NCBI GenBank assembly: GCA_016187415.1
Contig: JACPJT010000007.1
Location: 68,821-132,820 of the forward strand
Direction of reading: 5' to 3'
Length of the DNA stretch: 64,000 nt
Origin: Candidatus Aenigmatarchaeota archaeon
GTDB lineage: Archaea; Aenigmatarchaeota; Aenigmatarchaeia; CG10238-14; SCSR01
Shown: positions 2,691-51,095 of the stretch, piece after piece
Layout of the letters: every line of letters starts with the position of its first letter
How positions within the stretch are numbered: the stretch's first letter is position 1
Notes under the pieces: model-generated
What the model saw: only the letters and a program-made list of their open reading frames with translations
Databases searched by the model: none
What the model was told of the DNA's origin: nothing
Translations under genes and position numbers: made by a program

Positions 2691-3848
2691 TTAATTTTTA
2701 ACAAGCAGTTTCAATTCCTCTACTTTATCGGTCTTCTCCCAAGTAAAGTCATCATCTTCCCTTCCAAAATGGCCGTAGCAGGAAGTTTTGCGGTAAATCG
2801 GTCGCAACAATTTCAAATGCTGTATTATCATCCCCGGCCTTATGTCGAATGCTTTCTTCACTATTTCAGTCAAGGTGTCATCAGGCAATTTTCCCGTGCC
2901 GTAAGTATTGACCATTACTGATACAGGGTTCGCAACACCTATCGCATATGATATCTGCACTTCGCATTTGTCGGCAAGCGCCGCTGCGACTATATTCTTG
3001 GCTATGTATCGTGCCATGTAACCCCCGGAGCGGTCAACTTTACTGGGGTCTTTTCCTGAGAAGCAACCGCCGCCATGCGAACCTACTCCGCCGTATGTGT
3101 CAACAATTATTTTTCTTCCCGTCAGTCCGGTATCGGCTAAAGTTCCGCCAATAACAAATCTGCCCGTGCCGTTTACAATGAGTTTTGTTTTATCATCCAT
3201 CATGCTGGAAGGGATGACATGTTTTATTATGTGATCTGTTACATCTTTTCTGACTTGGTCTTCGGAAACATCTTCATCATGTTGAGCTGCTATTACAACA
3301 GTGTCGACTCGTTTGGGTCTCCCATTTTCATATTCGATAGTGACTTGCGACTTGCCATCCGGCCGTAGGTACGGCAGTATCTTCTGTTTTCGTACATCTG
3401 CGAATCTTTTCATCAGATTGTGTGCAAGCACTATCGGCAGCGGCATGAGTTCCGGCGTCTCGTTTGTGGCATAACCGAACATTATACCTTGGTCACCTGC
3501 ACCTTGTTCTTCAGAAGACCTATTGACACCCATTGCAATGTCGGGCGATTGTTCTGTAACCGAGACCATTATCCCGCATGTCTCATAATCAATTCCAACC
3601 TTGGCATTATCGAATCCTATCTCTTTCAGAGTTTTCCTGACAACAGTCGGGATATCGACATACGCATTTGTAGTTATCTGACCTGTTACAATTACATTAC
3701 CTTGCATTACCACCGTTTCACAATCGACTTTCGCCGCAGGATCCTTTTCTATTATTGCATCAAGAATAGAGTCGGATATCTGGTCCGAAACTTTATCGGG
3801 GTGACCTTCTGCGACCGATTCGGAAGTGAACAAATAATTCGATGACAT
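2691..3848 (-). CDS. metK: S-adenosylmethionine synthetase, bacterial/eukaryal MetK type
   Basis: 385 aa. N-terminus [20 protein letters not shown]. Motifs [19 protein letters not shown] and the MetK C-terminal domain are present. It is not the archaeal MAT type. Confidence 0.9.
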
Positions 3849-5777: not shown

Positions 5778-5864
5778 TTCATTCTAAAGGAATTTAATAC
5801 TTTTTCGACAGAAGCTACTTATTCAACAAAGCTGTATGTCAGCAAAGATACAAATATTCAACAC

Positions 5865-5874
5865 TTTTATATTA
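5865..5874 (+). promoter_or_regulatory. TATA-box-like element for histone gene (leaderless transcript likely)
   Basis: TTTTATATTA is centred about 24 nt upstream of the ATG at 5894. Confidence 0.4.
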
Positions 5875-5893
5875 CCCAACATTAATCTTAATT

Positions 5894-6100
5894 ATGGCAA
5901 AGAATCTACCTAACCTACCATTCGAGAGAATTTTGAAAAAGGTAGGCGCCAAAAGGGTTTCTCAGGATGCGTTGGAAGAATTCGCAACAGTAATGGAAGA
6001 AAAGTTGACGGTGCTTGCCAAGAGTGCCGTGGAGCTGTCGAAACATGCCGGCAGAAAAACCATCATAGGCGAGGATGTCAGGCTTTCAAAAAGCAAATGA
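5894..6100 (+). CDS. Archaeal histone (HMf family)
   Basis: 68 aa histone fold: LPNLPFERILKKVGAKRVSQDA...[10 protein letters not shown]. Confidence 0.85.
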   Translation: MAKNLPNLPFERILKKVGAKRVSQDALEEFATVMEEKLTVLAKSAVELSKHAGRKTIIGEDVRLSKSK

Positions 6101-33794: not shown

Positions 33795-33899
33795 ATGGGG
33801 TCTAAGGGATTTGAACCCTTATCATTCGGTGTCTTCTTTCATCTGTTGTCAATTCTCCATGACAAAAAGTCTGGAGCCGAACGTTCTGACCAGGTTAAA
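33786..33899 (-). tRNA. tRNA-Trp (anticodon CCA) with a canonical 37/38 intron of about 40 nt
   Basis: Reverse complement gives acceptor GGGGTCT/AGACCCC + A73, anticodon stem TTCGG/CCGAA, loop CTCCAG|intron|A, and T-arm AGGGT-TCAAATC-CCTTA. The intron contains CATGGAG, complementary to the anticodon loop (BHB-forming). Confidence 0.65.
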
Positions 33900-33933
33900 C
33901 CAAGACCCCCTATTGTTAAAAATAAAAGTCAAT

Positions 33934-34557
33934 TTACTTAAGCTTAAAGAAAATTACAGCAACTATAAGACTGGGTATCATCACCGACAATAAATAAACC
34001 ATGCCCAATTCCAAGAAAAATCCATCTGGGTAAAGAGTTTTCAGAAAACTGTCTGATGGAAAACTGAAATTGTTTACAAAAGAGATTTTATGGAATAAAA
34101 GAAAGGCTGTCTGAAAATCCAAATAAGCAAATACTGCAATTAGTAATATTACTGAAAAAACAACAGCAGATGCAATTTTCGTCGATTTTATGATGAAATC
34201 TTTTCTGTCTGTTAGAAAGTAAGCGCTGAACATCAACATCGCCAAAGAAATACCGGCTATCGCATTGGAGTTATTTACAATATATCCGACGTCATTCATG
34301 TGGCTTGATTCATTTGCATTCAGAAATTCTAAATTCGAACCAGTCTTAAAAAATTCTATTATTCGATTATTGTAATTTTCCAAATCAGCAGGATTCATAT
34401 GGACATTACTATTTTTTTGCAAAACCAGCCACATACCATAACTAGACGATAAAATAGGAACACTCCACAAAACAAACGACAGGGATAATGATATAATAAA
34501 GACAGCTTTTAATAAAAAATCAAGATGCGAGGTTTCTCTCATAAATATGAAAGCCAC
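33934..34557 (-). CDS. Polytopic membrane protein (207 aa)
   Basis: 5-6 TM, no motifs. Confidence 0.35.
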   Translation of the reverse strand: MAFIFMRETSHLDFLLKAVFIISLSLSFVLWSVPILSSSYGMWLVLQKNSNVHMNPADLENYNNRIIEFFKTGSNLEFLNANESSHMNDVGYIVNNSNAIAGISLAMLMFSAYFLTDRKDFIIKSTKIASAVVFSVILLIAVFAYLDFQTAFLLFHKISFVNNFSFPSDSFLKTLYPDGFFLELGMVYLLSVMIPSLIVAVIFFKLK

Positions 34558-34637
34558 AGGTGGGAATTGAACCCACGACCTTCCGCTTGCCTGTGATGAC
34601 TACAGGGCGGGTGCTCTACCGTCTGAGCTACTGTGGC
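34552..34637 (-). tRNA. Intron-containing tRNA, possibly Thr (UGU); anticodon assignment uncertain
   Basis: Reverse complement gives acceptor GCCACAG/CTGTGGC + U73, D-arm GCTC..GAGC, and T-arm GTGGG-TTCAATT-CCCAC. It is about 13 nt longer than a standard tRNA between the D- and T-arms. A CCTGT/ACAGG hairpin, consistent with an intron, lies within the anticodon region. Confidence 0.5.
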
Positions 34638-37794: not shown

Positions 37795-38055
37795 ACACTC
37801 ACGCCTATTATTTACTTGGGAGCGATTTAAAGGTGTGCTATATTTTGCAGAATATAGTCAACAATCAAAACCAGAACACCGAATACCAGCGAGTTGGCTA
37901 TCAAATATGGCAACGAACCCATGAAAGATACGAGAATTCCGCCAATGATGTAAAACAGGAAGCTGGCTATGACACCGTCTAAGAACGCCCTCAACAAGCT
38001 TTTAAACATGTTCCATCTGAAGCTACTTGTGTTTCAGTCCTTAAAAATAACGCAT

Positions 38056-38376
38056 CTATTTTATGTAATTCTTTCTTCTAAGCCAGTTGGCTTGAGTTGA
38101 CGTATATCTGAAAACAATGTCCGCCCTTTCATTCGATTGCGCGCTCCACGGCTCCACCAAAACATAATCGCCGACTCTAATCCAGACTTTCTTTCTCAGC
38201 TTTCCCGGTATGCGGCAAATTCTTGTATTTCCATCATAGCACTTTACCCGCAGTTTGTCGCCGCCAAGCATCATTTCAACTACGCCCAAAATTTCTATTC
38301 CTCTGGGCATTCTGGTTCGGGATATTTCAATTTCTTCTTGAGTCAATTCAGGTTCTTTAGGCATGTTACCTCTCAA
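38056..38376 (-). CDS. eif1a: Translation initiation factor aIF-1A
   Basis: S1-like OB: GDKLRVKCYDGNTRICRIPGKLRKKVWIRVGDYVLVEPW. Confidence 0.85.
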   Translation of the reverse strand: MRGNMPKEPELTQEEIEISRTRMPRGIEILGVVEMMLGGDKLRVKCYDGNTRICRIPGKLRKKVWIRVGDYVLVEPWSAQSNERADIVFRYTSTQANWLRRKNYIK

Positions 38377-38455
38377 ATAGCTGTGTTCCCAAAACTATAA
38401 ATCTTTCATGCGATCGGGTCGGTTTAAATAAAGATGCATATTCATATTTTCACGT

Positions 38456-39142
38456 ATGTCACGCTTTGCAATAATACCTGCCTACAATGAAGAGAAAAAT
38501 ATAGGACAGGTATTGAAAGAAGTGAAAAAACTCGGCGTAACACCCATTGTTGTGGACGACGGTTCAACCGACGATACGTTTGGCATATCCAAGAAGAACG
38601 GTGCTATTACAATAAGGCATGAGAGGAACAAAGGCAAAGGCGAGTCGATAAAATCCGGCATAGATTATCTCCTCAAACATCATCCCGATTTCACATGCGT
38701 CGTGTTGATGGATGCGGACATGCAATACCATCCGAAAGAAGCCATGGCCATCTTCAACGCTTTGGAAAAGAACAAATCCGATTTTGTGATGGGACATAGG
38801 AATTGGGAAGAAGTCCCTCTAAGGCACCAGCTTGGAAATTTCGTATGGAGAAATGCATTCAATATACTTTTTGGCACCAGTTTGAAAGACACCAACTGCG
38901 GCCTCATAGGAATCAGCAGGAATGCTATAGAAAAAATCAAGGGGTATATTATCGGCGGTTACGTGGTGGACAATTCAATTCTGATCGGGGTTATAAAAAA
39001 CAAACTTAAAATCGATCAGGTGCCGGTAAAAGTTGTCTATCATAGAAAAAGCGGAGTCACACGCGGTATAACGATAGTGGCTGGCGTGTTGATATATATT
39101 GTGAAGGAAGGATTGAAATACAGGTTAGGTCGGAAAAGATGA
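38456..39142 (+). CDS. Family 2 glycosyltransferase (dolichyl-phosphate sugar transferase-like)
   Basis: VVDDGSTDDT and DAD motifs. Confidence 0.75.
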   Translation: MSRFAIIPAYNEEKNIGQVLKEVKKLGVTPIVVDDGSTDDTFGISKKNGAITIRHERNKGKGESIKSGIDYLLKHHPDFTCVVLMDADMQYHPKEAMAIFNALEKNKSDFVMGHRNWEEVPLRHQLGNFVWRNAFNILFGTSLKDTNCGLIGISRNAIEKIKGYIIGGYVVDNSILIGVIKNKLKIDQVPVKVVYHRKSGVTRGITIVAGVLIYIVKEGLKYRLGRKR

Positions 39143-39549
39143 CATGGAAGGGTTGTATAATAGAAGAGAGTCTAACCGACAGCAGTCTACTATTTGGAAT
39201 AAAAGTTATAAGAACCGTGATTGAAGAGAACGCAGAAGGTAAAGAAACGATAGTTTGGAATATACATACGGTAGAAGTCTATAACAAAGAAATCGATAAA
39301 GTTGCCGAAAAACTAGAGAGAAACTTAAAACTCGGGTGGTACGCACATTTTACTGATGGACACGATTTACTCATAATTTTTGCAAATAAATCATTTACCA
39401 TTGGATTAGAAAAAGTCGGCGAAGAGAAAGAAACCGGAATTACCAATTTTAAAGCAAACTCTAAAGGTAAAGGAGTTTGGAAGTCGGCTTTTGAATATGG
39501 CACAGAAATAGCGAAAGTCGATCCTAAATACATGCTTAAAGTTGAATAA
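39139..39549 (+). CDS. Hypothetical protein (136 aa)
   Basis: ATGA overlap with the GT2 gene. No motifs. Confidence 0.3.
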   Translation: MTWKGCIIEESLTDSSLLFGIKVIRTVIEENAEGKETIVWNIHTVEVYNKEIDKVAEKLERNLKLGWYAHFTDGHDLLIIFANKSFTIGLEKVGEEKETGITNFKANSKGKGVWKSAFEYGTEIAKVDPKYMLKVE

Positions 39550-39638
39550 AATTATAGCCGATTTTTTACAGATCTTTAATGTGGGAAATTACCCCCTACC
39601 AAAGTCTGATTATTCCAAAGATTTATATAAAATAAAGG

Positions 39639-40598
39639 TTGATTAGAATGATATGGGGGTATAACTCAGTCCGGGAGAAGAGGCTACCCGATAGTAACCG
39701 CCTGAAGCGCGGTGAGTTATCTGAAATAGCCCGCAATGTCGAGAGTTCAAATCTCTCTACCCCCACTACACCTCTGAATAATAACGATGTTCTCTTTAGT
39801 CGGGAAGATACCATTAGAGGTATTTGTGTGCCATCTGACTTGACACCTCTTTTAGCTGAAGATGTAGGAATTCAGGTTGGGGATGGATCCATGCCTTTAT
39901 GGCGGAATAAACATGGAACTCTGATACATAGAATCGGCGTCTTCGGTAATATCAAGGAAGATAAGGAGTATTTTAGAAATATCGTAATTCCAACCAAAAA
40001 CAAGCTGTTCAATCTGAAATTAAATTTATATTATCACAAAAGTGCCGGTACATGCTACATAAAATTCGAATCTAAAGCAGTCATGACATTTTATTTTACT
40101 TCGATTGGTTTACAATGGGGTAAAAAAGTCGAGACGTATATACCAGACATTATCTTCAATAGCACAAAAGAAATTAAATCAGCTTTTATGCGGGGTCTTG
40201 CAGATACGGACTTTTGTTTATCTTTCAAAAAGAATTTTAAAGGAAAGTACAGTGATCCTTATATACAGCTAGGATGCAGTAGCAATATACTTGTTCGTCA
40301 ATGTAGCAAAATTCTGAAGTCTTTAGGAATAACTTCGACGAAGATTTTGGACTCTAAGGAGTATGATAAGCGAACTGATAAATTTTACATTAAGAATTAT
40401 CTATTTATACATGGTAAGAAAAACCTGAAGAAATGGATGGAATCTATAGGTTTTCATAATCCCGTACATTTTACTAAATACGACATTTGGAAAAAGTTTG
40501 GATTTTGTCCTCCTCGAACCAAGTTGCAGCAAAGAATTGATACACTAGAAGGTAATGCAGATATCAGTAACCTTTGCAACAATTCTTCAACCTTTTAA
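39639..40598 (+). CDS. LAGLIDADG homing endonuclease (double-motif)
   Basis: Motifs GIQVGDGSM and FMRGLADTDFCLSF. The annotated N-terminus is read through the tRNA-like gene, so the true start is probably near 39830 (GTG/TTG). Confidence 0.55.
   Translation: MIRMIWGYNSVREKRLPDSNRLKRGELSEIARNVESSNLSTPTTPLNNNDVLFSREDTIRGICVPSDLTPLLAEDVGIQVGDGSMPLWRNKHGTLIHRIGVFGNIKEDKEYFRNIVIPTKNKLFNLKLNLYYHKSAGTCYIKFESKAVMTFYFTSIGLQWGKKVETYIPDIIFNSTKEIKSAFMRGLADTDFCLSFKKNFKGKYSDPYIQLGCSSNILVRQCSKILKSLGITSTKILDSKEYDKRTDKFYIKNYLFIHGKKNLKKWMESIGFHNPVHFTKYDIWKKFGFCPPRTKLQQRIDTLEGNADISNLCNNSSTF
39654..39768 (+). tRNA. tRNA-like gene, probable tRNA-Phe (GAA), with two extra insertions (candidate non-canonical introns)
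   Basis: Acceptor GGGGGTA/TACCCCC + A73. T-arm GAGAG-TTCAAAT-CTCTC. Perfect anticodon arm ACCGC-CTGAAGC-GCGGT. About 17 nt of extra sequence lies between the D-arm and anticodon arm, and about 22 nt between the anticodon arm and T-arm. Confidence 0.4.
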
Positions 40599-41193
40599 AA
40601 GTCACATAACCATACTTGTTAGTATGTCGGCTGAAAAGATTTGGGAAGGCGATATTGTAGAAGAGCGTGTAGTAATCTGGGATAAGGATAATGCAATTCT
40701 TTATGACGAAGCTGGCTATGGCAAACCTTTGCCAGAAGAAGAACCGAACAGACTGGAAATGGATTTGGTTGAAGCAGTCTATCTTGTGGAAAAAGGCAAG
40801 TTAAAGATTACTAGAAAGGAAGACGGCAAGAGCAAGAAACTATCCTTCGAAGACTTGATGAAAATAGGTAGCGAAAAGGTGCATGAATTCCACCCACAAT
40901 ACATCGTTTACCGTGATCTGCGCGAAAGGGGATATCTGGTTAAAACAGGTTACAAGTTCGGCTGTCATTTCCGCGTTTATGAAAGGGGAGTTAAACTGAA
41001 AAGGGGTCCCAAAGCTGCCCATGAGCATACTAAATTCGTAGTCCATGCCGTTGCAGAAGAATCCGCATTTTCCTTGCCGGAGATGTCTCGTGCAGTAAGG
41101 TTAGCACATAACATAAGAGCCACGATGGTGTGGGCTGTGGTAGATCGCGAGTCGGACGTAACCTTTTATACTATACAAAGAATAACTCCTTAG
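40555..41193 (+). CDS. endA: tRNA-splicing endonuclease EndA
   Basis: Catalytic C-terminal domain (YLVKTGYKFGCHFRVYE...HEHTKFVVHAV). Probable start is M at 40624. Confidence 0.75.
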   Translation: MQISVTFATILQPFKSHITILVSMSAEKIWEGDIVEERVVIWDKDNAILYDEAGYGKPLPEEEPNRLEMDLVEAVYLVEKGKLKITRKEDGKSKKLSFEDLMKIGSEKVHEFHPQYIVYRDLRERGYLVKTGYKFGCHFRVYERGVKLKRGPKAAHEHTKFVVHAVAEESAFSLPEMSRAVRLAHNIRATMVWAVVDRESDVTFYTIQRITP

Positions 41194-41204
41194 GATATGA
41201 TTGA

Positions 41205-41399
41205 ATGGGTCGAATAAAAACGTCACAAGTCAAGAATGCAGGAGTGGAAATTTTCGATAAATACAGGGATAAGTTCTCTGGTGATTTTTCTAAGAACAAG
41301 CAATTTCTTAGGGACAATTATACAGTAAGTTCAAAGAAGTTACTGAATGTCATTACGGGTTATATAACAAAACTCAAAAAACAGTCTGAACGCATCTGA
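41205..41399 (+). CDS. rps17e: 30S ribosomal protein S17e
   Basis: Carries MGRIKTSQVKNAGVEIFDKY.... Confidence 0.85.
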   Translation: MGRIKTSQVKNAGVEIFDKYRDKFSGDFSKNKQFLRDNYTVSSKKLLNVITGYITKLKKQSERI

Positions 41400-41434
41400 T
41401 TTTTATTGTTTATTCTCCAAATAACAAGTAGAGT

Positions 41435-42571
41435 ATGTCACAAAAAGGCGAGCAGAAAATCTGGGACGAATTCGTTTGGATAATTGCCGCAGGCGTCCTT
41501 TTTATCTTGATACTAACGATGGTATTCACATCCTCATCATCCTCCCCCATAATCGACCAGAAGGCTTTATCGCTAACTCTTGCCAGAGGAGATTCCTACA
41601 CATTCAATGTTAATATAAAAAGTAGCGATGGAGGAAAGATTTCTAATGTGTCAATAACTAGTGTTGGTGAATTAAGTAACTGGTTAAGTTTCGATAAGAC
41701 GAATTTCGATGTTGACAATTCTACTGCACTTAAAGTGAAAATCCAAGTGCCTACAACAGCATCTTTGAGAACTTATGCTGGAATTATCACAGTCAAAAGT
41801 GCCGGCGGGAGTTCATCGTTTTCATTATCAGTAAATGTCGCCAATGTTTCCTCAATACAGTTAACTTCAAGACCAATTTCATTAGGCGATGTGGAAGTGA
41901 GATATTCAAAGGGGTCCGAAACGCTGTTTTCCAAGGAGAACATTCAGGTCGTGAGCGGTACTTTTTCATATTCTTCTGAATCATTTTCTATTGCATTTCC
42001 CCCAGAAAAGGTTTCCATTACAAACACAGCGCACTTGGACCTTTATGTCGTAGATACAAACAAGATGGGAAATCTTGTAGTCGAAGTGAACGGTCAGGAA
42101 GTATACAATAAGAAAACCGATGTGGGCAAGGTAGTTGTTCCTTTGGACAAATCGCTCCTAAACACCACAAACGTTGTAACAATCAGAACAACTGGAACTT
42201 CGATATTCCAGTTCTGGACAAATGCTTTCTACAAGATTGAAAAGGCGGATTTCGTCATAGATTATAAGGACACTTCCCAAAGGGAGAGAACGTTCCAATT
42301 GAGCCAGAACGAAGTCTTAGGGTTCCGTTATTTCCAGCTTCAGTCCCTTGTAAAAGAATATTCATCACCGTTGCAGGAAATGTTTATAAAAATTAATAAT
42401 CAGGTTGTCTATACCGACAGGCCACCACTGGCTGCCATAAACCAAACATTGGGTAAAGACATATTTGGAAACAATATAGCAGTCGGTACGAACAACACCA
42501 TTTCGTTCTCATTTGAAAAGGATTCTTTCATAAAACTGGGGGATGTAATCCTGGTTGTCTATTCTAGCTAG
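41435..42571 (+). CDS. Membrane-anchored extracellular protein (N-terminal TM, Ser-rich linker, beta-rich domains)
   Basis: 378 aa. Signal anchor followed by SSSSSP. Confidence 0.35.
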   Translation: MSQKGEQKIWDEFVWIIAAGVLFILILTMVFTSSSSSPIIDQKALSLTLARGDSYTFNVNIKSSDGGKISNVSITSVGELSNWLSFDKTNFDVDNSTALKVKIQVPTTASLRTYAGIITVKSAGGSSSFSLSVNVANVSSIQLTSRPISLGDVEVRYSKGSETLFSKENIQVVSGTFSYSSESFSIAFPPEKVSITNTAHLDLYVVDTNKMGNLVVEVNGQEVYNKKTDVGKVVVPLDKSLLNTTNVVTIRTTGTSIFQFWTNAFYKIEKADFVIDYKDTSQRERTFQLSQNEVLGFRYFQLQSLVKEYSSPLQEMFIKINNQVVYTDRPPLAAINQTLGKDIFGNNIAVGTNNTISFSFEKDSFIKLGDVILVVYSS

Positions 42572-43343
42572 CCAATCCCAACAGGAAAAAGTCCCTAATT
42601 GCAGGCGCAAAGCCTATTATCGCTATAATAAGTTTGAGAAAATTGTTGAAGTTCTTGTCTTCTGAATAACGGTCGATCAAAAGCAAGACACCAACTACCA
42701 CGATGACTTTAATTATAATAAATGACACGGGGCTAAATGCCCCAATCAAAAGTCTGGGAACAACGTGCAATTCCTTGAACCCGAAAAATTGTATTGCTGT
42801 AAATGTGGCAGTTGCATCGAATATGTGCGACATTGCGACGAGTTTGTTTCCGAGCTTCCATTTTACAAGGTACAGTATTACAGCAAATGGTATCATCAAT
42901 CCCAAGGCAATTCCCATTCCCTTAAGCTGCTTTATTTGGCTCAAGACAAGAGTCATTGGAATTATAATCAGCAATATCCCGGCAAGCGTCAGCGTTTTGT
43001 AGTAGGGTATTTTGAATCTTTTCTCCACGAGTCTTGAAACCAGGAAAAGGGCGAATACAAGAGCAAACACTTCTATCCATATCAGGGGCGTGACTAGGAA
43101 ATACGAAACAACTATGCCGTATTCCTCCAATAATCTTACCATCGTTCCGAACACGACAAGTGTAACTATCGATACAACAAAGTTCCTGTCTATCTTGATT
43201 TTGGATTTTTCTATGAACTTGAACGACAGATATGCTGCTATGACAACAATGAACGCATAGGTCAGCGTGTTGACGAAATTATAGCCTTGGTTGAGGAATA
43301 TAGGCTGGATATAGTATTGGTATATGAAATCGGCAAAGCTCAT
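42564..43343 (-). CDS. Polytopic membrane protein (about 8 TM; DUF63-like?)
   Basis: 259 aa, hydrophobic. Confidence 0.3.
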   Translation of the reverse strand: MSFADFIYQYYIQPIFLNQGYNFVNTLTYAFIVVIAAYLSFKFIEKSKIKIDRNFVVSIVTLVVFGTMVRLLEEYGIVVSYFLVTPLIWIEVFALVFALFLVSRLVEKRFKIPYYKTLTLAGILLIIIPMTLVLSQIKQLKGMGIALGLMIPFAVILYLVKWKLGNKLVAMSHIFDATATFTAIQFFGFKELHVVPRLLIGAFSPVSFIIIKVIVVVGVLLLIDRYSEDKNFNNFLKLIIAIIGFAPAIRDFFLLGLAS

Positions 43344-50782: not shown

Positions 50783-51095
50783 ATTTCACCTTCTATAAGT
50801 AAGATAGGAGCTCGCTCTGGTCGATATAATATCATAAGGTAGTTTTACCAATTACTCTTCTCCATCATGTTTTTCTCAAACATGGCATATATAACTTACT
50901 GATGCTTCCTTCCGGATCTGTCAGGTTTTATTATACACGCCACTCTGAGAGACACGACTTCTCAGTCGAGCAACTGGACTAACTTACAATACCATACCTT
51001 CCAGAGCTGTCGCCGCGCCGTGAACCGGATTTGCGCTTTAGGGAGCCGGTAGTTCCCCAGCCAAGCTCCTGTAAACAATAAAACAGTAATCTAAT

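What the first reader, a model, noticed from the sequence alone, without database searches (positions are those of the whole stretch)
39639..41193. LAGLIDADG homing endonuclease gene abutting a tRNA-like gene and lying upstream of the tRNA-splicing endonuclease
The ORF carries both LAGLIDADG-type motifs (VGDGSM; GLADTDFCLSF). Its annotated reading frame starts upstream of and runs through the tRNA-Phe-like gene. A free-standing or intron-derived homing endonuclease next to a structurally aberrant tRNA suggests an ancient intron-homing event. The element may be a degenerate intron-encoded HE now adjacent to its former host, or still within an unrecognised long intron.
Basis: partly seen in the sequence, partly recalled or inferred. 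Interest (0 to 1): 0.6.

Follow-up and report, generated by a model that had tools for sequence, protein, structure and literature searches.

The report
Homing endonuclease gene fused behind tRNA-Phe
A selfish DNA-cutting enzyme gene sits directly behind an intron-bearing tRNA-Phe gene in a DPANN archaeon; its reading frame appears to run through the tRNA gene, and it belongs to a previously undescribed family that almost always lies beside tRNA genes.

Summary
Window 39655-39765 is a tRNA-Phe(GAA) gene with two non-canonical bulge-helix-bulge introns: 39678-39692 and 39715-39736. Directly after its last base begins a two-domain LAGLIDADG endonuclease, I-DmoI-like, with both catalytic Asp residues kept. 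The splicing endonuclease EndA (40624-41193) follows. It is not intron-encoded, degenerate or part of a split tRNA.

- **Insertion site.** The closest relative, L101, has the same locus without this gene 3' of tRNA-Phe. It carries a different LAGLIDADG gene on the 5' side instead.
- **Family.** Relatives occur in at least 162 DPANN species. 74 of 100 loci have a tRNA gene within 160 nt, against 4.6% expected, and subclades are tied to particular tRNAs.
- **Mobility.** Endonuclease alleles are distributed discordantly with flanking genes, which indicates horizontal exchange.
- **Reading frame.** In 12 orthologous loci the endonuclease frame stays open through the tRNA and its ten different introns. 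There are 0 stops in that frame against 47 in the other two, intron length changes keep the frame, and an ATG lies just upstream. Seven loci, including the window, have no ATG, GTG or TTG between the tRNA and the conserved N-terminus. The frame is probably translated through the unspliced tRNA gene.

Verdict: a mobile free-standing endonuclease of a known kind in an unusual arrangement. Cleavage activity and target are untested.

The parts
39622..39629 (+). TATA-like box TTTATATA, first T at -33 relative to tRNA base 1
   Evidence: Read from the sequence. A TTTAAA/TTTATA-type box sits at -31 to -37 in the orthologous loci where that upstream region is readable (L092's contig starts too close to show it). 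Promoter function is inferred, not tested.
39648..39650 (+). In-frame ATG 7 nt upstream of the tRNA; candidate true start of the endonuclease ORF
   Evidence: An ATG lies at exactly -7 in window, L092, L002, L094 and L100. It lies at -6 in L097, where intron lengths shift the frame by one. It lies at -58 or -55 in six other loci.
39655..39765 (+). tRNA-Phe(GAA) gene, 111 nt with two introns, 74 nt spliced
   Evidence: Rfam RF00005 at 42 bits. The BHB-rule solver gives a unique solution. The spliced sequence folds as a perfect tRNA-Phe cloverleaf in ARAGORN.
39678..39692 (+). Intron 1, 15 nt, in the 3' strand of the D-stem (about position 22/23); relaxed bulge-helix-loop type
   Evidence: Central helix CGGG/CCCG, with cuts 2 nt after each helix strand. 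The same intron type occurs in L002, L094 and L095. It is absent in L092, L100 and L097 and is replaced by a 21-nt D-loop intron in five loci.
39715..39736 (+). Intron 2, 22 nt, in the variable loop (about position 44/45); helix-bulge-helix type
   Evidence: Central helix GCGG/CCGC plus an inner 5-bp hairpin. In five sequences all 45 cells pair and two pairs show compensatory changes.
39766..40571 (+). Inserted segment carrying the endonuclease coding core (right boundary approximate)
   Evidence: L101 is colinear with the window up to 39605 and again from 40587. The L101 sequence directly after its tRNA-Phe aligns to window about 40572-40630.
39648..40598 (+). LAGLIDADG endonuclease ORF as proposed here (316 aa, reading through the tRNA); NCBI annotates 39828-40598 (GTG, 256 aa)
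   Evidence: Residues upstream of the GTG are conserved in distant homologues and fold confidently (pLDDT 94-98 for residues 1-20 of the model).
39864..39890 (+). LAGLIDADG motif 1 (VGIQVGDGS; catalytic Asp codon 39882-39884)
   Evidence: G-D-G is invariant in 22 and in 47 homologues.
40191..40214 (+). LAGLIDADG motif 2 (RGLADTDF; catalytic Asp codon 40209-40211)
   Evidence: G and the first D are invariant; T and the second D are at least 90% conserved. Pfam LAGLIDADG_3 covers this domain.
40592..40601 (+). CTTTTAAAAG: contains the endonuclease stop codon (40596-40598); probably the TATA box of EndA (-31 from its ATG)
   Evidence: The same sequence is present in L101, which has no endonuclease gene there. 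The stop codon is therefore borrowed from pre-existing spacer. The promoter role is inferred.
40624..41193 (+). tRNA-splicing endonuclease EndA, 189 aa (about 180-aa single-unit, alpha4-like size)
   Evidence: Pfam tRNA_int_endo_N (E 1.6e-16) and tRNA_int_endo (E 1.4e-27). 933 homologues were found, named tRNA-intron lyase by NCBI.

Best explanation
This is a free-standing, probably active and recently mobile, single-chain LAGLIDADG homing endonuclease gene. It is inserted exactly between the 3' end of a tRNA-Phe(GAA) gene and the promoter of EndA in a Candidatus Aenigmarchaeota genome.

It belongs to a DPANN-wide endonuclease family whose members sit tightly against tRNA genes, and occasionally rRNA genes. 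Each subclade keeps to one particular tRNA. By analogy with other free-standing homing endonucleases, the enzyme would cut alleles that lack it in or near that tRNA gene and be copied in by repair. Cleavage and target are inferred, not shown.

The inserted core has neither its own promoter nor, in this lineage, its own start or stop codon. It is most likely translated from an ATG 7 nt upstream of the tRNA, reading through the unspliced tRNA gene and both introns. Expression then rides on RNA that is also the tRNA precursor.

The tRNA itself is an ordinary, functional-looking tRNA-Phe with two non-canonical bulge-helix-bulge introns.
For: Endonuclease identity:
- Pfam hit, conserved catalytic Asp residues, pLDDT 96.3, and best fold matches to I-DmoI, I-Tsp061I and the endonuclease domains of inteins.

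Free-standing insertion:
- L101 (EndA 88-89% identical) is colinear except for the tRNA/endonuclease block.
- L101 has nothing between tRNA-Phe and the EndA promoter, but carries a 28%-identical LAGLIDADG ORF on the 5' side of the tRNA.

Family habit:
- 162 species hits, all but a few labelled DPANN.
- 74 of 100 loci have a tRNA within 160 nt, against 4.6% for random placements.
- Subclades are tied to Arg-TCG, Cys-GCA, Asn-GTT, Thr-TGT, Ile-GAT, Ser-GCT, Leu and Phe-GAA. Two members are in or next to 23S rRNA.

Mobility:
- L001 and L096 flanks are 92-93% identical but their endonucleases only 62%.
- The L096 endonuclease is 90% identical to those of L095 and L098, whose flanks are 75-88% identical to L096's.

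Translation through the tRNA:
- All 12 orthologous loci studied at DNA level keep the frame open across the tRNA. Stops per locus are 0 in that frame and 1-7 in each other frame. The 13th full-length homologue, P0008, was examined only as a protein and also runs through the tRNA.
- Across distinct intron sequences the stop counts are 0, 15 and 32 in frames 0, +1 and +2.
- Total intron length is 1 mod 3 in 11 of 12 loci despite ten different introns. The exception, L097, has its ATG shifted from -7 to -6.
- A 55-58-nt AT-rich leader in six loci has 0 stops in frame against 2-6 in each other frame, and an in-frame 3-nt indel.
- There is no ATG, GTG or TTG between the tRNA and the conserved, confidently folded N-terminus in the window and six relatives.
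- L013 shows the same arrangement with a tRNA-Asn.
Against: - No expression, transcript-end, proteomic or cleavage data exist.
- The TATA-like box lies at -33 to -26 relative to the tRNA. This predicts a transcript start at or a few nt before tRNA base 1, downstream of the -7 ATG. A transcript including the ATG needs unusual spacing or read-through from the upstream same-strand genes.
- The 12 loci share ancestry, so the statistics on frames and stops rest on about 6-10 independent intron events, not 12.
- Five of 12 relatives do have a GTG or TTG a few codons before the conserved N-terminus.
- Many family members sit convergently to their tRNA, so co-transcription cannot be the general reason for tRNA adjacency.
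- The recognition site is unknown.
Confidence: 0.6

Rival explanations
1. Same free-standing endonuclease, but the frame through the tRNA is never translated. Translation would start after the tRNA, at the annotated GTG 39828 or at a non-canonical codon such as CTG 39774, on the 3' trailer of the tRNA transcript. The upstream open frame would then be a by-product.
For: - NCBI annotates GTG 39828 (P0001, 256 aa).
- The promoter geometry favours a start at the tRNA 5' end.
- Five relatives have a GTG or TTG just before the conserved N-terminus.
- tRNA precursors are normally processed quickly (general knowledge).
Against: - GTG 39828 removes 11-16 conserved residues that fold with pLDDT above 94.
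- Seven of 12 loci have no canonical start after the tRNA.
- This reading does not explain 0 stops against 47 in the introns, the multiple-of-3 behaviour of intron length changes, the compensating ATG shift in L097, or the stop-free AT-rich leader.
Confidence: 0.25
2. A domesticated LAGLIDADG protein with a host function linked to tRNA genes. It could be a DNA-binding regulator like bacterial WhiA, or an RNA-binding helper like mitochondrial maturases. It would be inherited vertically and no longer act as a mobile nuclease.
For: - The position is conserved in 13 Aenigmarchaeota loci.
- The fold also matches the bI3 maturase and WhiA, at lower rank.
- It lies near EndA in this clade.
Against: - Both catalytic Asp residues are conserved.
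- Distribution is patchy: 162 species hits in a scan of 185,579 species genomes.
- The closest relative, L101, lacks it and has a different one on the other side of the tRNA.
- Endonuclease alleles are incongruent with their flanks.
- The neighbouring tRNA differs between subclades and lies in all four orientations.
- EndA linkage is absent outside this clade.
Confidence: 0.1
3. One reading: the ORF is encoded inside an unrecognised long intron, or between the halves of a split or permuted tRNA.
For: - Archaeal rRNA introns do carry LAGLIDADG genes. One family member (L071) lies inside 23S rRNA.
- The host tRNA is intron-rich.
Against: - The tRNA is complete upstream of the ORF, with a 7-bp acceptor stem and a discriminator base.
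- No tRNA-like sequence lies downstream in 38000-43000.
- L101 shows that the sequence after the ORF is ordinary tRNA-to-EndA spacer.
Confidence: 0.02

Closest known systems
I-DmoI and I-Tsp061I (archaeal rRNA-intron-encoded single-chain LAGLIDADG endonucleases) and the endonuclease domains of archaeal inteins (TliVMA, PI-PfuI)
   Same: Two-domain single-chain LAGLIDADG fold with one catalytic acidic residue per motif. These are the best structural matches. One family member (L071) also lies inside 23S rRNA.
   Different: Sequence identity is only 15-22%. This protein has about 60 extra C-terminal helical residues with an invariant Trp and the W-K-K-F-G-F-C-P-P motif. The gene is not inside an intron or intein but intergenic, abutting a tRNA gene.
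Free-standing homing endonucleases of phages, e.g. T4 SegB in the tRNA gene cluster (my own knowledge; SegB also appears in PMC13096335, listed)
   Same: Intergenic endonuclease gene next to tRNA genes. It shows presence/absence polymorphism among relatives and signs of localised gene conversion.
   Different: SegB is a GIY-YIG enzyme in a phage. Here the enzyme is a LAGLIDADG protein in cellular DPANN genomes, single copy, tightly packed against one tRNA, and sharing its reading frame with it.
Collaborative homing: F-CphI beside the intron-containing psbA gene of cyanophages (Zeng, Bonocora and Shub 2009; my own knowledge, not checked here)
   Same: A free-standing endonuclease gene lies next to an intron-containing gene. 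All 12 endonuclease-bearing loci have an intron at tRNA positions 44-54. L101, which has no endonuclease on that side, has none there.
   Different: There is no evidence here that the enzyme cuts at an intron insertion site. The introns are BHB, not group I. Across the family, many adjacent tRNAs have no intron.
Mitochondrial group I intron LAGLIDADG ORFs fused in frame to the upstream exon (yeast cob/cox1 introns; my own knowledge)
   Same: The endonuclease has no start of its own and is translated as an extension of upstream host-gene sequence.
   Different: There the upstream sequence is a protein-coding exon. Here it would be a tRNA gene with its introns, which is not otherwise translated.
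Multi-intron tRNA genes with non-canonical BHB introns (Thermoproteales and DPANN; PMC5829648)
   Same: Several short introns at non-canonical positions, relaxed BHB motifs, and a DPANN alpha4-type EndA.
   Different: Here a single orthologous tRNA-Phe shows ten different introns at eight or more positions among 12 relatives. Those introns also appear to be under open-reading-frame constraint.

Membership tests
LAGLIDADG homing endonuclease, single-chain two-domain type | Two LAGLIDADG motifs forming the helices at the domain interface | tested here: met
   Motifs at 39864-39890 and 40191-40214. They are conserved in 47 homologues. Helices 23-35 and 130-144 of the model carry them.
LAGLIDADG homing endonuclease, single-chain two-domain type | Duplicated alpha-beta-beta-alpha-beta-beta-alpha fold | tested here: met
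   pLDDT 96.3. Foldseek probability 1.00 to I-DmoI (TM 0.77 of target), I-Tsp061I and the TliVMA intein endonuclease. Pfam PF14528 above cut-off.
LAGLIDADG homing endonuclease, single-chain two-domain type | Catalytic acidic residue at the end of each motif | tested here: met
   The Asp of GDG is invariant. The second Asp of DTD is at least 90% conserved.
LAGLIDADG homing endonuclease, single-chain two-domain type | Site-specific double-strand DNA cleavage | not testable with these tools
   Needs purified protein and substrate.
LAGLIDADG homing endonuclease, single-chain two-domain type | Mobility: patchy presence and phylogeny discordant with the host | tested here: met
   L101 lacks it at this site. 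Endonuclease and flank identities are discordant. Indirect evidence only.
Intron-encoded archaeal endonuclease (ORF inside a BHB or group I intron) | ORF lies between two exon parts of one RNA gene | tested here: not met
   The tRNA is complete upstream. The downstream sequence is spacer shared with L101. No downstream tRNA part was found.
Free-standing homing endonuclease | Intergenic ORF, with an empty site in a close relative | tested here: met
   L101 has tRNA-Phe followed directly by the EndA spacer.
Free-standing homing endonuclease | Cuts the endonuclease-free allele close to its own insertion point | not testable with these tools
   The target is unknown. The tRNA gene is the obvious candidate, by inference only.
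Archaeal tRNA with non-canonical BHB introns | Canonical cloverleaf after intron removal | tested here: met
   The 74-nt spliced sequence is called tRNA-Phe(GAA) over positions 1-74.
Archaeal tRNA with non-canonical BHB introns | 4-bp central helix with cuts two nucleotides into 3-nt bulges at both junctions | tested here: met
   A unique solution exists with 4 of 4 pairs for both introns. Intron 1 lacks the inner helix, which is the relaxed form. The helices of intron 2 covary.
Archaeal tRNA with non-canonical BHB introns | Splicing by EndA in vivo | not testable with these tools
   EndA is encoded 25 nt downstream of the ORF, but no RNA data exist.
Archaeal tRNA-splicing endonuclease EndA | N-terminal and catalytic C-terminal EndA domains | tested here: met
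   PF02778 and PF01974 are both above their cut-offs.

The most novel reading that the evidence does not exclude
The endonuclease and the tRNA introns may form a collaborative mobile unit. The enzyme would cut intron-free tRNA-Phe alleles in the variable-loop/T-arm region. An intron in that region would protect the carrier. Every one of the 12 endonuclease-bearing loci has one there, of six different kinds, and L101 has none. Repair would co-convert the endonuclease gene together with nearby introns.

This would give archaeal BHB tRNA introns a DNA-level route of spread to non-canonical positions. It would also represent a stage before intron-encoded endonucleases such as I-DmoI. In addition, the introns would be under protein-coding constraint, because the endonuclease is translated through the unspliced tRNA gene.
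Probability: 0.15. Interest if true: 0.9.

Novelty: new variant of a known kind. Interest (0 to 1): 0.68.

Why it matters
- **Origin of tRNA introns.** How archaeal tRNA introns arise, move and settle at non-canonical positions is unresolved. Here a single tRNA-Phe gene carries ten different introns among 12 relatives. It sits next to a mobile endonuclease whose alleles recombine between lineages. This is a concrete, testable system linking homing-type gene conversion to tRNA intron turnover.
- **A tRNA gene read as protein.** If the ORF is translated through the tRNA, one stretch of DNA is constrained both as a tRNA (with introns) and as a protein-coding 5' region. I found no precedent for this in the papers searched.
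- **Annotation.** Standard tRNA finders miss this tRNA. Gene callers either merge it into the ORF or truncate the ORF.
- **New enzymes.** The family is a set of compact single-chain LAGLIDADG enzymes with presumably tRNA-gene-linked targets. That could interest meganuclease engineers.

Tried and rejected
- **tRNA finders.** ARAGORN on the window and Rfam at gathering threshold on the whole window both miss the tRNA-Phe. Only the permissive Rfam scan of a 5-kb stretch finds it.
- **PDB by sequence.** No match. The fold search was needed.
- **Metagenome scan with the single protein.** Only distant relatives were returned. Close relatives had to be fetched one by one.
- **Viral contigs.** They hold only generic 24-35% relatives. 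The family is not notably viral.
- **Are introns generally on the endonuclease-facing side of the tRNA?** There is no trend in my covariance-model alignment, and about a third of adjacent tRNAs have no insert at all. The immunity idea therefore rests on the Phe clade alone.
- **Is tRNA-Phe unusually diverged between the window and L101, as a co-conversion signature?** No. It is 70% identical, and a control tRNA is 69%.
- **Is EndA adjacency a family feature?** No.
- **Conserved 30-nt element.** The element upstream of the -58 ATG in six relatives is absent from the window.
- **Shine-Dalgarno check.** I tried to read a 16S 3' end from L033 to test the SD-like motif (AGGT.GAT, GAGGT, GTGAT) 8-16 nt before the -7 ATG. 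The rRNA hit there was not usable, so the motif is noted by eye only.
- **Automated intron solver for L101.** It timed out. Those introns were parsed by hand and the spliced product was checked with ARAGORN.
Full report
**What is there**

The window comes from a Candidatus Aenigmarchaeota metagenome-assembled genome. The ORF's product matches NCBI protein HYW23_04010 at 100% identity.

The maximal ORF is 39639-40598. It carries two LAGLIDADG motifs: VGIQVGDGS at 39864-39890 and RGLADTDF at 40191-40214. The evidence that it is a LAGLIDADG endonuclease is as follows.

- Pfam LAGLIDADG_3 matches the second domain above its cut-off, E 2.9e-7.
- The G-D-G of motif 1 and the G..D.D of motif 2 are invariant or nearly so in alignments of 22 and 47 homologues.
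- An AlphaFold model built on the 47-sequence alignment has mean pLDDT 96.3.
- Its best Foldseek matches are the endonuclease domain of the TliVMA intein, I-DmoI (TM 0.77 of the target), I-Tsp061I and PI-PfuI.
- Search of PDB by sequence alone found nothing.

The protein is therefore a single-chain, two-domain LAGLIDADG enzyme of the archaeal type with both catalytic aspartates in place. It has about 60 extra C-terminal helical residues.

**The tRNA**

Rfam finds a tRNA at 39655-39765 (42 bits) with two insertions. ARAGORN misses it.

I applied the archaeal splice rule: a 4-bp central helix, with each cut two nucleotides into a 3-nt bulge. I also required that ARAGORN accept the 74-nt product. 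This gives one solution for the window.

| Intron | Window coordinates | Length | Helix | tRNA position |
|---|---|---|---|---|
| 1 | 39678-39692 | 15 nt | CGGG/CCCG | about 22/23 |
| 2 | 39715-39736 | 22 nt | GCGG/CCGC plus inner hairpin | about 44/45 |

The product is a perfect tRNA-Phe(GAA) cloverleaf. The helices of intron 2 are fully paired in five relatives, with two compensatory pairs. Multi-intron tRNAs and alpha4-type EndA with broadened specificity are already described for DPANN (PMC5829648). The tRNA is therefore unusual for software but not for this group of archaea. EndA, at 40624-41193, matches both Pfam domains.

**Where the gene sits**

Twelve relatives of the endonuclease (49-60% identical) come from syntenic loci: glycosyltransferase, a variable gene, tRNA-Phe, endonuclease, sometimes an M54 peptidase, EndA, then S17e.

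The closest relative by EndA is L101 (88-89% identity). It is colinear with the window at 66-77% DNA identity. The exception is L101 4895-5962 against window 39606-40586.

- **What L101 carries.** A different LAGLIDADG ORF lies there, 28% identical over 156 aa with Pfam E 2.7e-4. It precedes tRNA-Phe and runs into the tRNA's 5' end.
- **The L101 tRNA.** It has introns only in its 5' third, at 9/10 and in the D-loop. Nothing separates it from the EndA spacer.
- **Where the window insert lies.** The L101 spacer aligns to window about 40572-40630. The window's endonuclease core is therefore an insert between the discriminator base (39765) and about 40571.
- **The stop codon.** The endonuclease stop codon lies in CTTTTAAAAG, a pre-existing sequence that is probably the EndA TATA box.

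Each genome thus serves as the empty site for the other's endonuclease. This excludes the intron-encoded and split-tRNA readings.

**A tRNA-flanking family**

A scan of one genome per species found 162 relatives, almost all in DPANN lineages: Aenigmat-, Woese-, Pace-, Nano-, Iain- and Micrarchaeota.

I built a tRNA covariance model from 45 intron-free tRNAs. With it, 74 of 100 loci have a tRNA within 160 nt of the ORF ends, usually within 40 nt and often overlapping. The figure for random placements in the same loci is 4.6%.

- All four orientations occur.
- In a neighbour-joining tree, subclades keep to one tRNA and one geometry. Examples are Arg-TCG overlapped by the ORF's 3' end, Cys-GCA and Asn-GTT convergent, and Phe-GAA upstream.
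- Two clustered members lie inside (L071) or just after (L035) 23S rRNA.
- I found no description of this family in the papers searched.

**Mobility**

Within the Phe clade, endonuclease identity conflicts with the identity of flanking genes.

| Pair | Flank identity (M54 / GT2) | Endonuclease identity |
|---|---|---|
| L001 vs L096 | 92% / 93% | 62% |
| L096 vs L095 | 75% / 88% | 90% |
| L096 vs L098 | not compared | 90% |
| L001 vs L093 | 77% / 82% | 81% |

The tRNA introns are also mosaic. L099 combines the D-loop and 45/46 introns of L001 and L093 with the 59/60 intron and endonuclease type of L095. This is what localised gene conversion around a homing endonuclease would produce. It is indirect evidence.

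**The reading frame through the tRNA**

This appears to be a selected feature, for several reasons.

- **The N-terminus lies upstream of the annotated start.** Distant homologues start with Met about eight residues before a conserved F-S-x-x-D segment. In the window that segment lies upstream of the annotated GTG 39828 and folds with pLDDT above 94.
- **No canonical start after the tRNA.** No ATG, GTG or TTG lies between the tRNA and that segment in the window, L001, L002, L093, L096, L097 or L098.
- **The frame is open in every close homologue.** All 13 full-length close homologues have the frame open through the tRNA.
- **Stops avoid the endonuclease frame.** In the 12 loci studied at DNA level, that frame has 0 stops inside the tRNA. 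The other frames have 36 and 50 in total. For stops overlapping distinct intron sequences the counts are 0, 15 and 32.
- **Intron lengths preserve the frame.** These tRNAs carry ten different introns:
  - D-loop, 21 nt
  - 22/23, 15 nt
  - 26/27, 20 nt
  - 44/45, 22 nt
  - 45/46, 22 nt
  - 45/46, 31 nt
  - 46/47, 21 nt
  - 53/54, 22 nt
  - 53/54, 31 nt
  - 59/60, 21 nt

  Total insert length is 1 mod 3 in 11 of 12 loci. In the exception, L097, the upstream ATG sits at -6 instead of -7, which restores the frame.
- **A conserved upstream ATG.** The ATG is at exactly -7 in five loci. In six others it is at -58 or -55, preceded by its own TATA-like box. It is followed by an AT-rich leader with 0 stops in frame against 2-6 in each other frame, and an in-frame 3-nt length difference.
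- **An independent case.** L013 repeats the arrangement with a three-intron tRNA-Asn.

Counting only independent events, there are about six frame-preserving length changes and about 21 stops in one representative of each intron type. Chance is then of the order of 1e-3 to 1e-4 for each line of evidence. This is my estimate, not a formal phylogenetic test.

The main counter-argument is promoter geometry. The TATA-like box at -33 to -26 from the tRNA predicts a start downstream of the -7 ATG. The translated RNA may therefore come from upstream read-through, since all neighbouring genes are on the same strand. An SD-like motif precedes the ATG, seen by eye only. Alternatively the promoter may have atypical spacing.

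**Mechanism proposed**

*Shown:*
- the fold and catalytic residues;
- the exact insertion site;
- the family-wide habit of flanking tRNA genes;
- allele exchange between lineages;
- the constraint on the reading frame.

*Inferred:*
- the enzyme cuts endonuclease-free alleles in or near the tRNA gene and is copied in by repair;
- it is expressed at a low level from RNA that is otherwise matured into tRNA-Phe;
- it is translated unspliced from the upstream ATG.

*Speculative:* the introns at positions 44-54, present in 12 of 12 carriers and absent in L101, may protect the carrier's own tRNA gene and travel with the endonuclease. Across the family I saw no general link between intron position and the endonuclease-facing side, and many adjacent tRNAs are intron-free. 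A control comparison showed no excess divergence of tRNA-Phe.

**Verdict**

The finding is real. It is a new variant of a known kind, a free-standing LAGLIDADG homing endonuclease, with two features worth following up. One is a DPANN-wide attachment to tRNA genes. The other is an ORF that appears to be read through an intron-containing tRNA gene.

Noticed in passing
L101 4924-5862 and about 5854-5951: The closest relative carries a different LAGLIDADG ORF (312 aa, 28% identical to the window's) on the 5' side of its tRNA-Phe. The ORF's last codons overlap the tRNA acceptor strand and stop inside a 19-nt intron at position 9/10. A second 13-nt intron lies in the D-loop, and the 3' half is uninterrupted.
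   Followed up: partly
window 33796-33909 (-) and 34552-34637 (-): Rfam finds two further tRNA genes (55.6 and 57 bits) that ARAGORN missed. The first is 114 nt long, so it also carries an insertion or insertions. Intron-bearing tRNAs are therefore not confined to the endonuclease locus.
   Followed up: no
L001 3941-3970; also L093, L095, L096, L098, L099, about 40 nt upstream of the -58 ATG: A conserved sequence of about 30 nt, AAAGTTCACCGGCACAGAGGTCCCGAAAAG, sits upstream of the leader in six relatives although their upstream genes differ. It is absent from the window. Its nature is unknown.
   Followed up: partly
L071 1-376 and 3364-3590; L035 1-2915: Two clustered family members are associated with 23S rRNA. 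In L071 the ORF lies between rRNA model positions 2143 and 2378, inside an intervening sequence. In L035 it begins about 70 nt after the rRNA 3' end.
   Followed up: no
L013 2857-3825, tRNA 2903-3035: A 40%-identical endonuclease in another archaeon directly follows a 133-nt tRNA-Asn(GTT) with three insertions. The frame is again open through the tRNA, and in-frame ATGs lie inside the introns. An EndA gene lies about 1.9 kb downstream.
   Followed up: partly
L006, L020, L021, L025, L034 (proteins P0022, P0024, P0025, P0031): One clade, mostly Iainarchaeum-labelled (L006 is labelled Aenigmatarchaeota, L034 unclassified archaeon), has an N-terminal extension of about 150-200 residues with no Pfam match and no adjacent tRNA.
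   Followed up: partly
window 39635-39643 and the equivalent positions in L092, L002, L094, L100, L097: A purine-rich motif resembling a Shine-Dalgarno sequence (AGGTTGAT, AGGTAGAT, GAGGT, GTGAT, GGAG) lies 8-16 nt upstream of the -7 ATG, between the TATA-like box and the tRNA. Different parts of the anti-SD complement are used in different loci. Seen by eye only.
   Followed up: no
window 50804-51072 (-): Archaeal SRP RNA, 106.6 bits against a gathering score of 96.5.
   Followed up: no
window 39139-39549 (+): A 136-aa ORF between the glycosyltransferase gene and the tRNA has no significant Pfam match. A 136-aa ORF with no Pfam match sits at the same position in L101, within the stretch that is colinear at DNA level. 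In the more distant relatives other genes occupy that slot.
   Followed up: no
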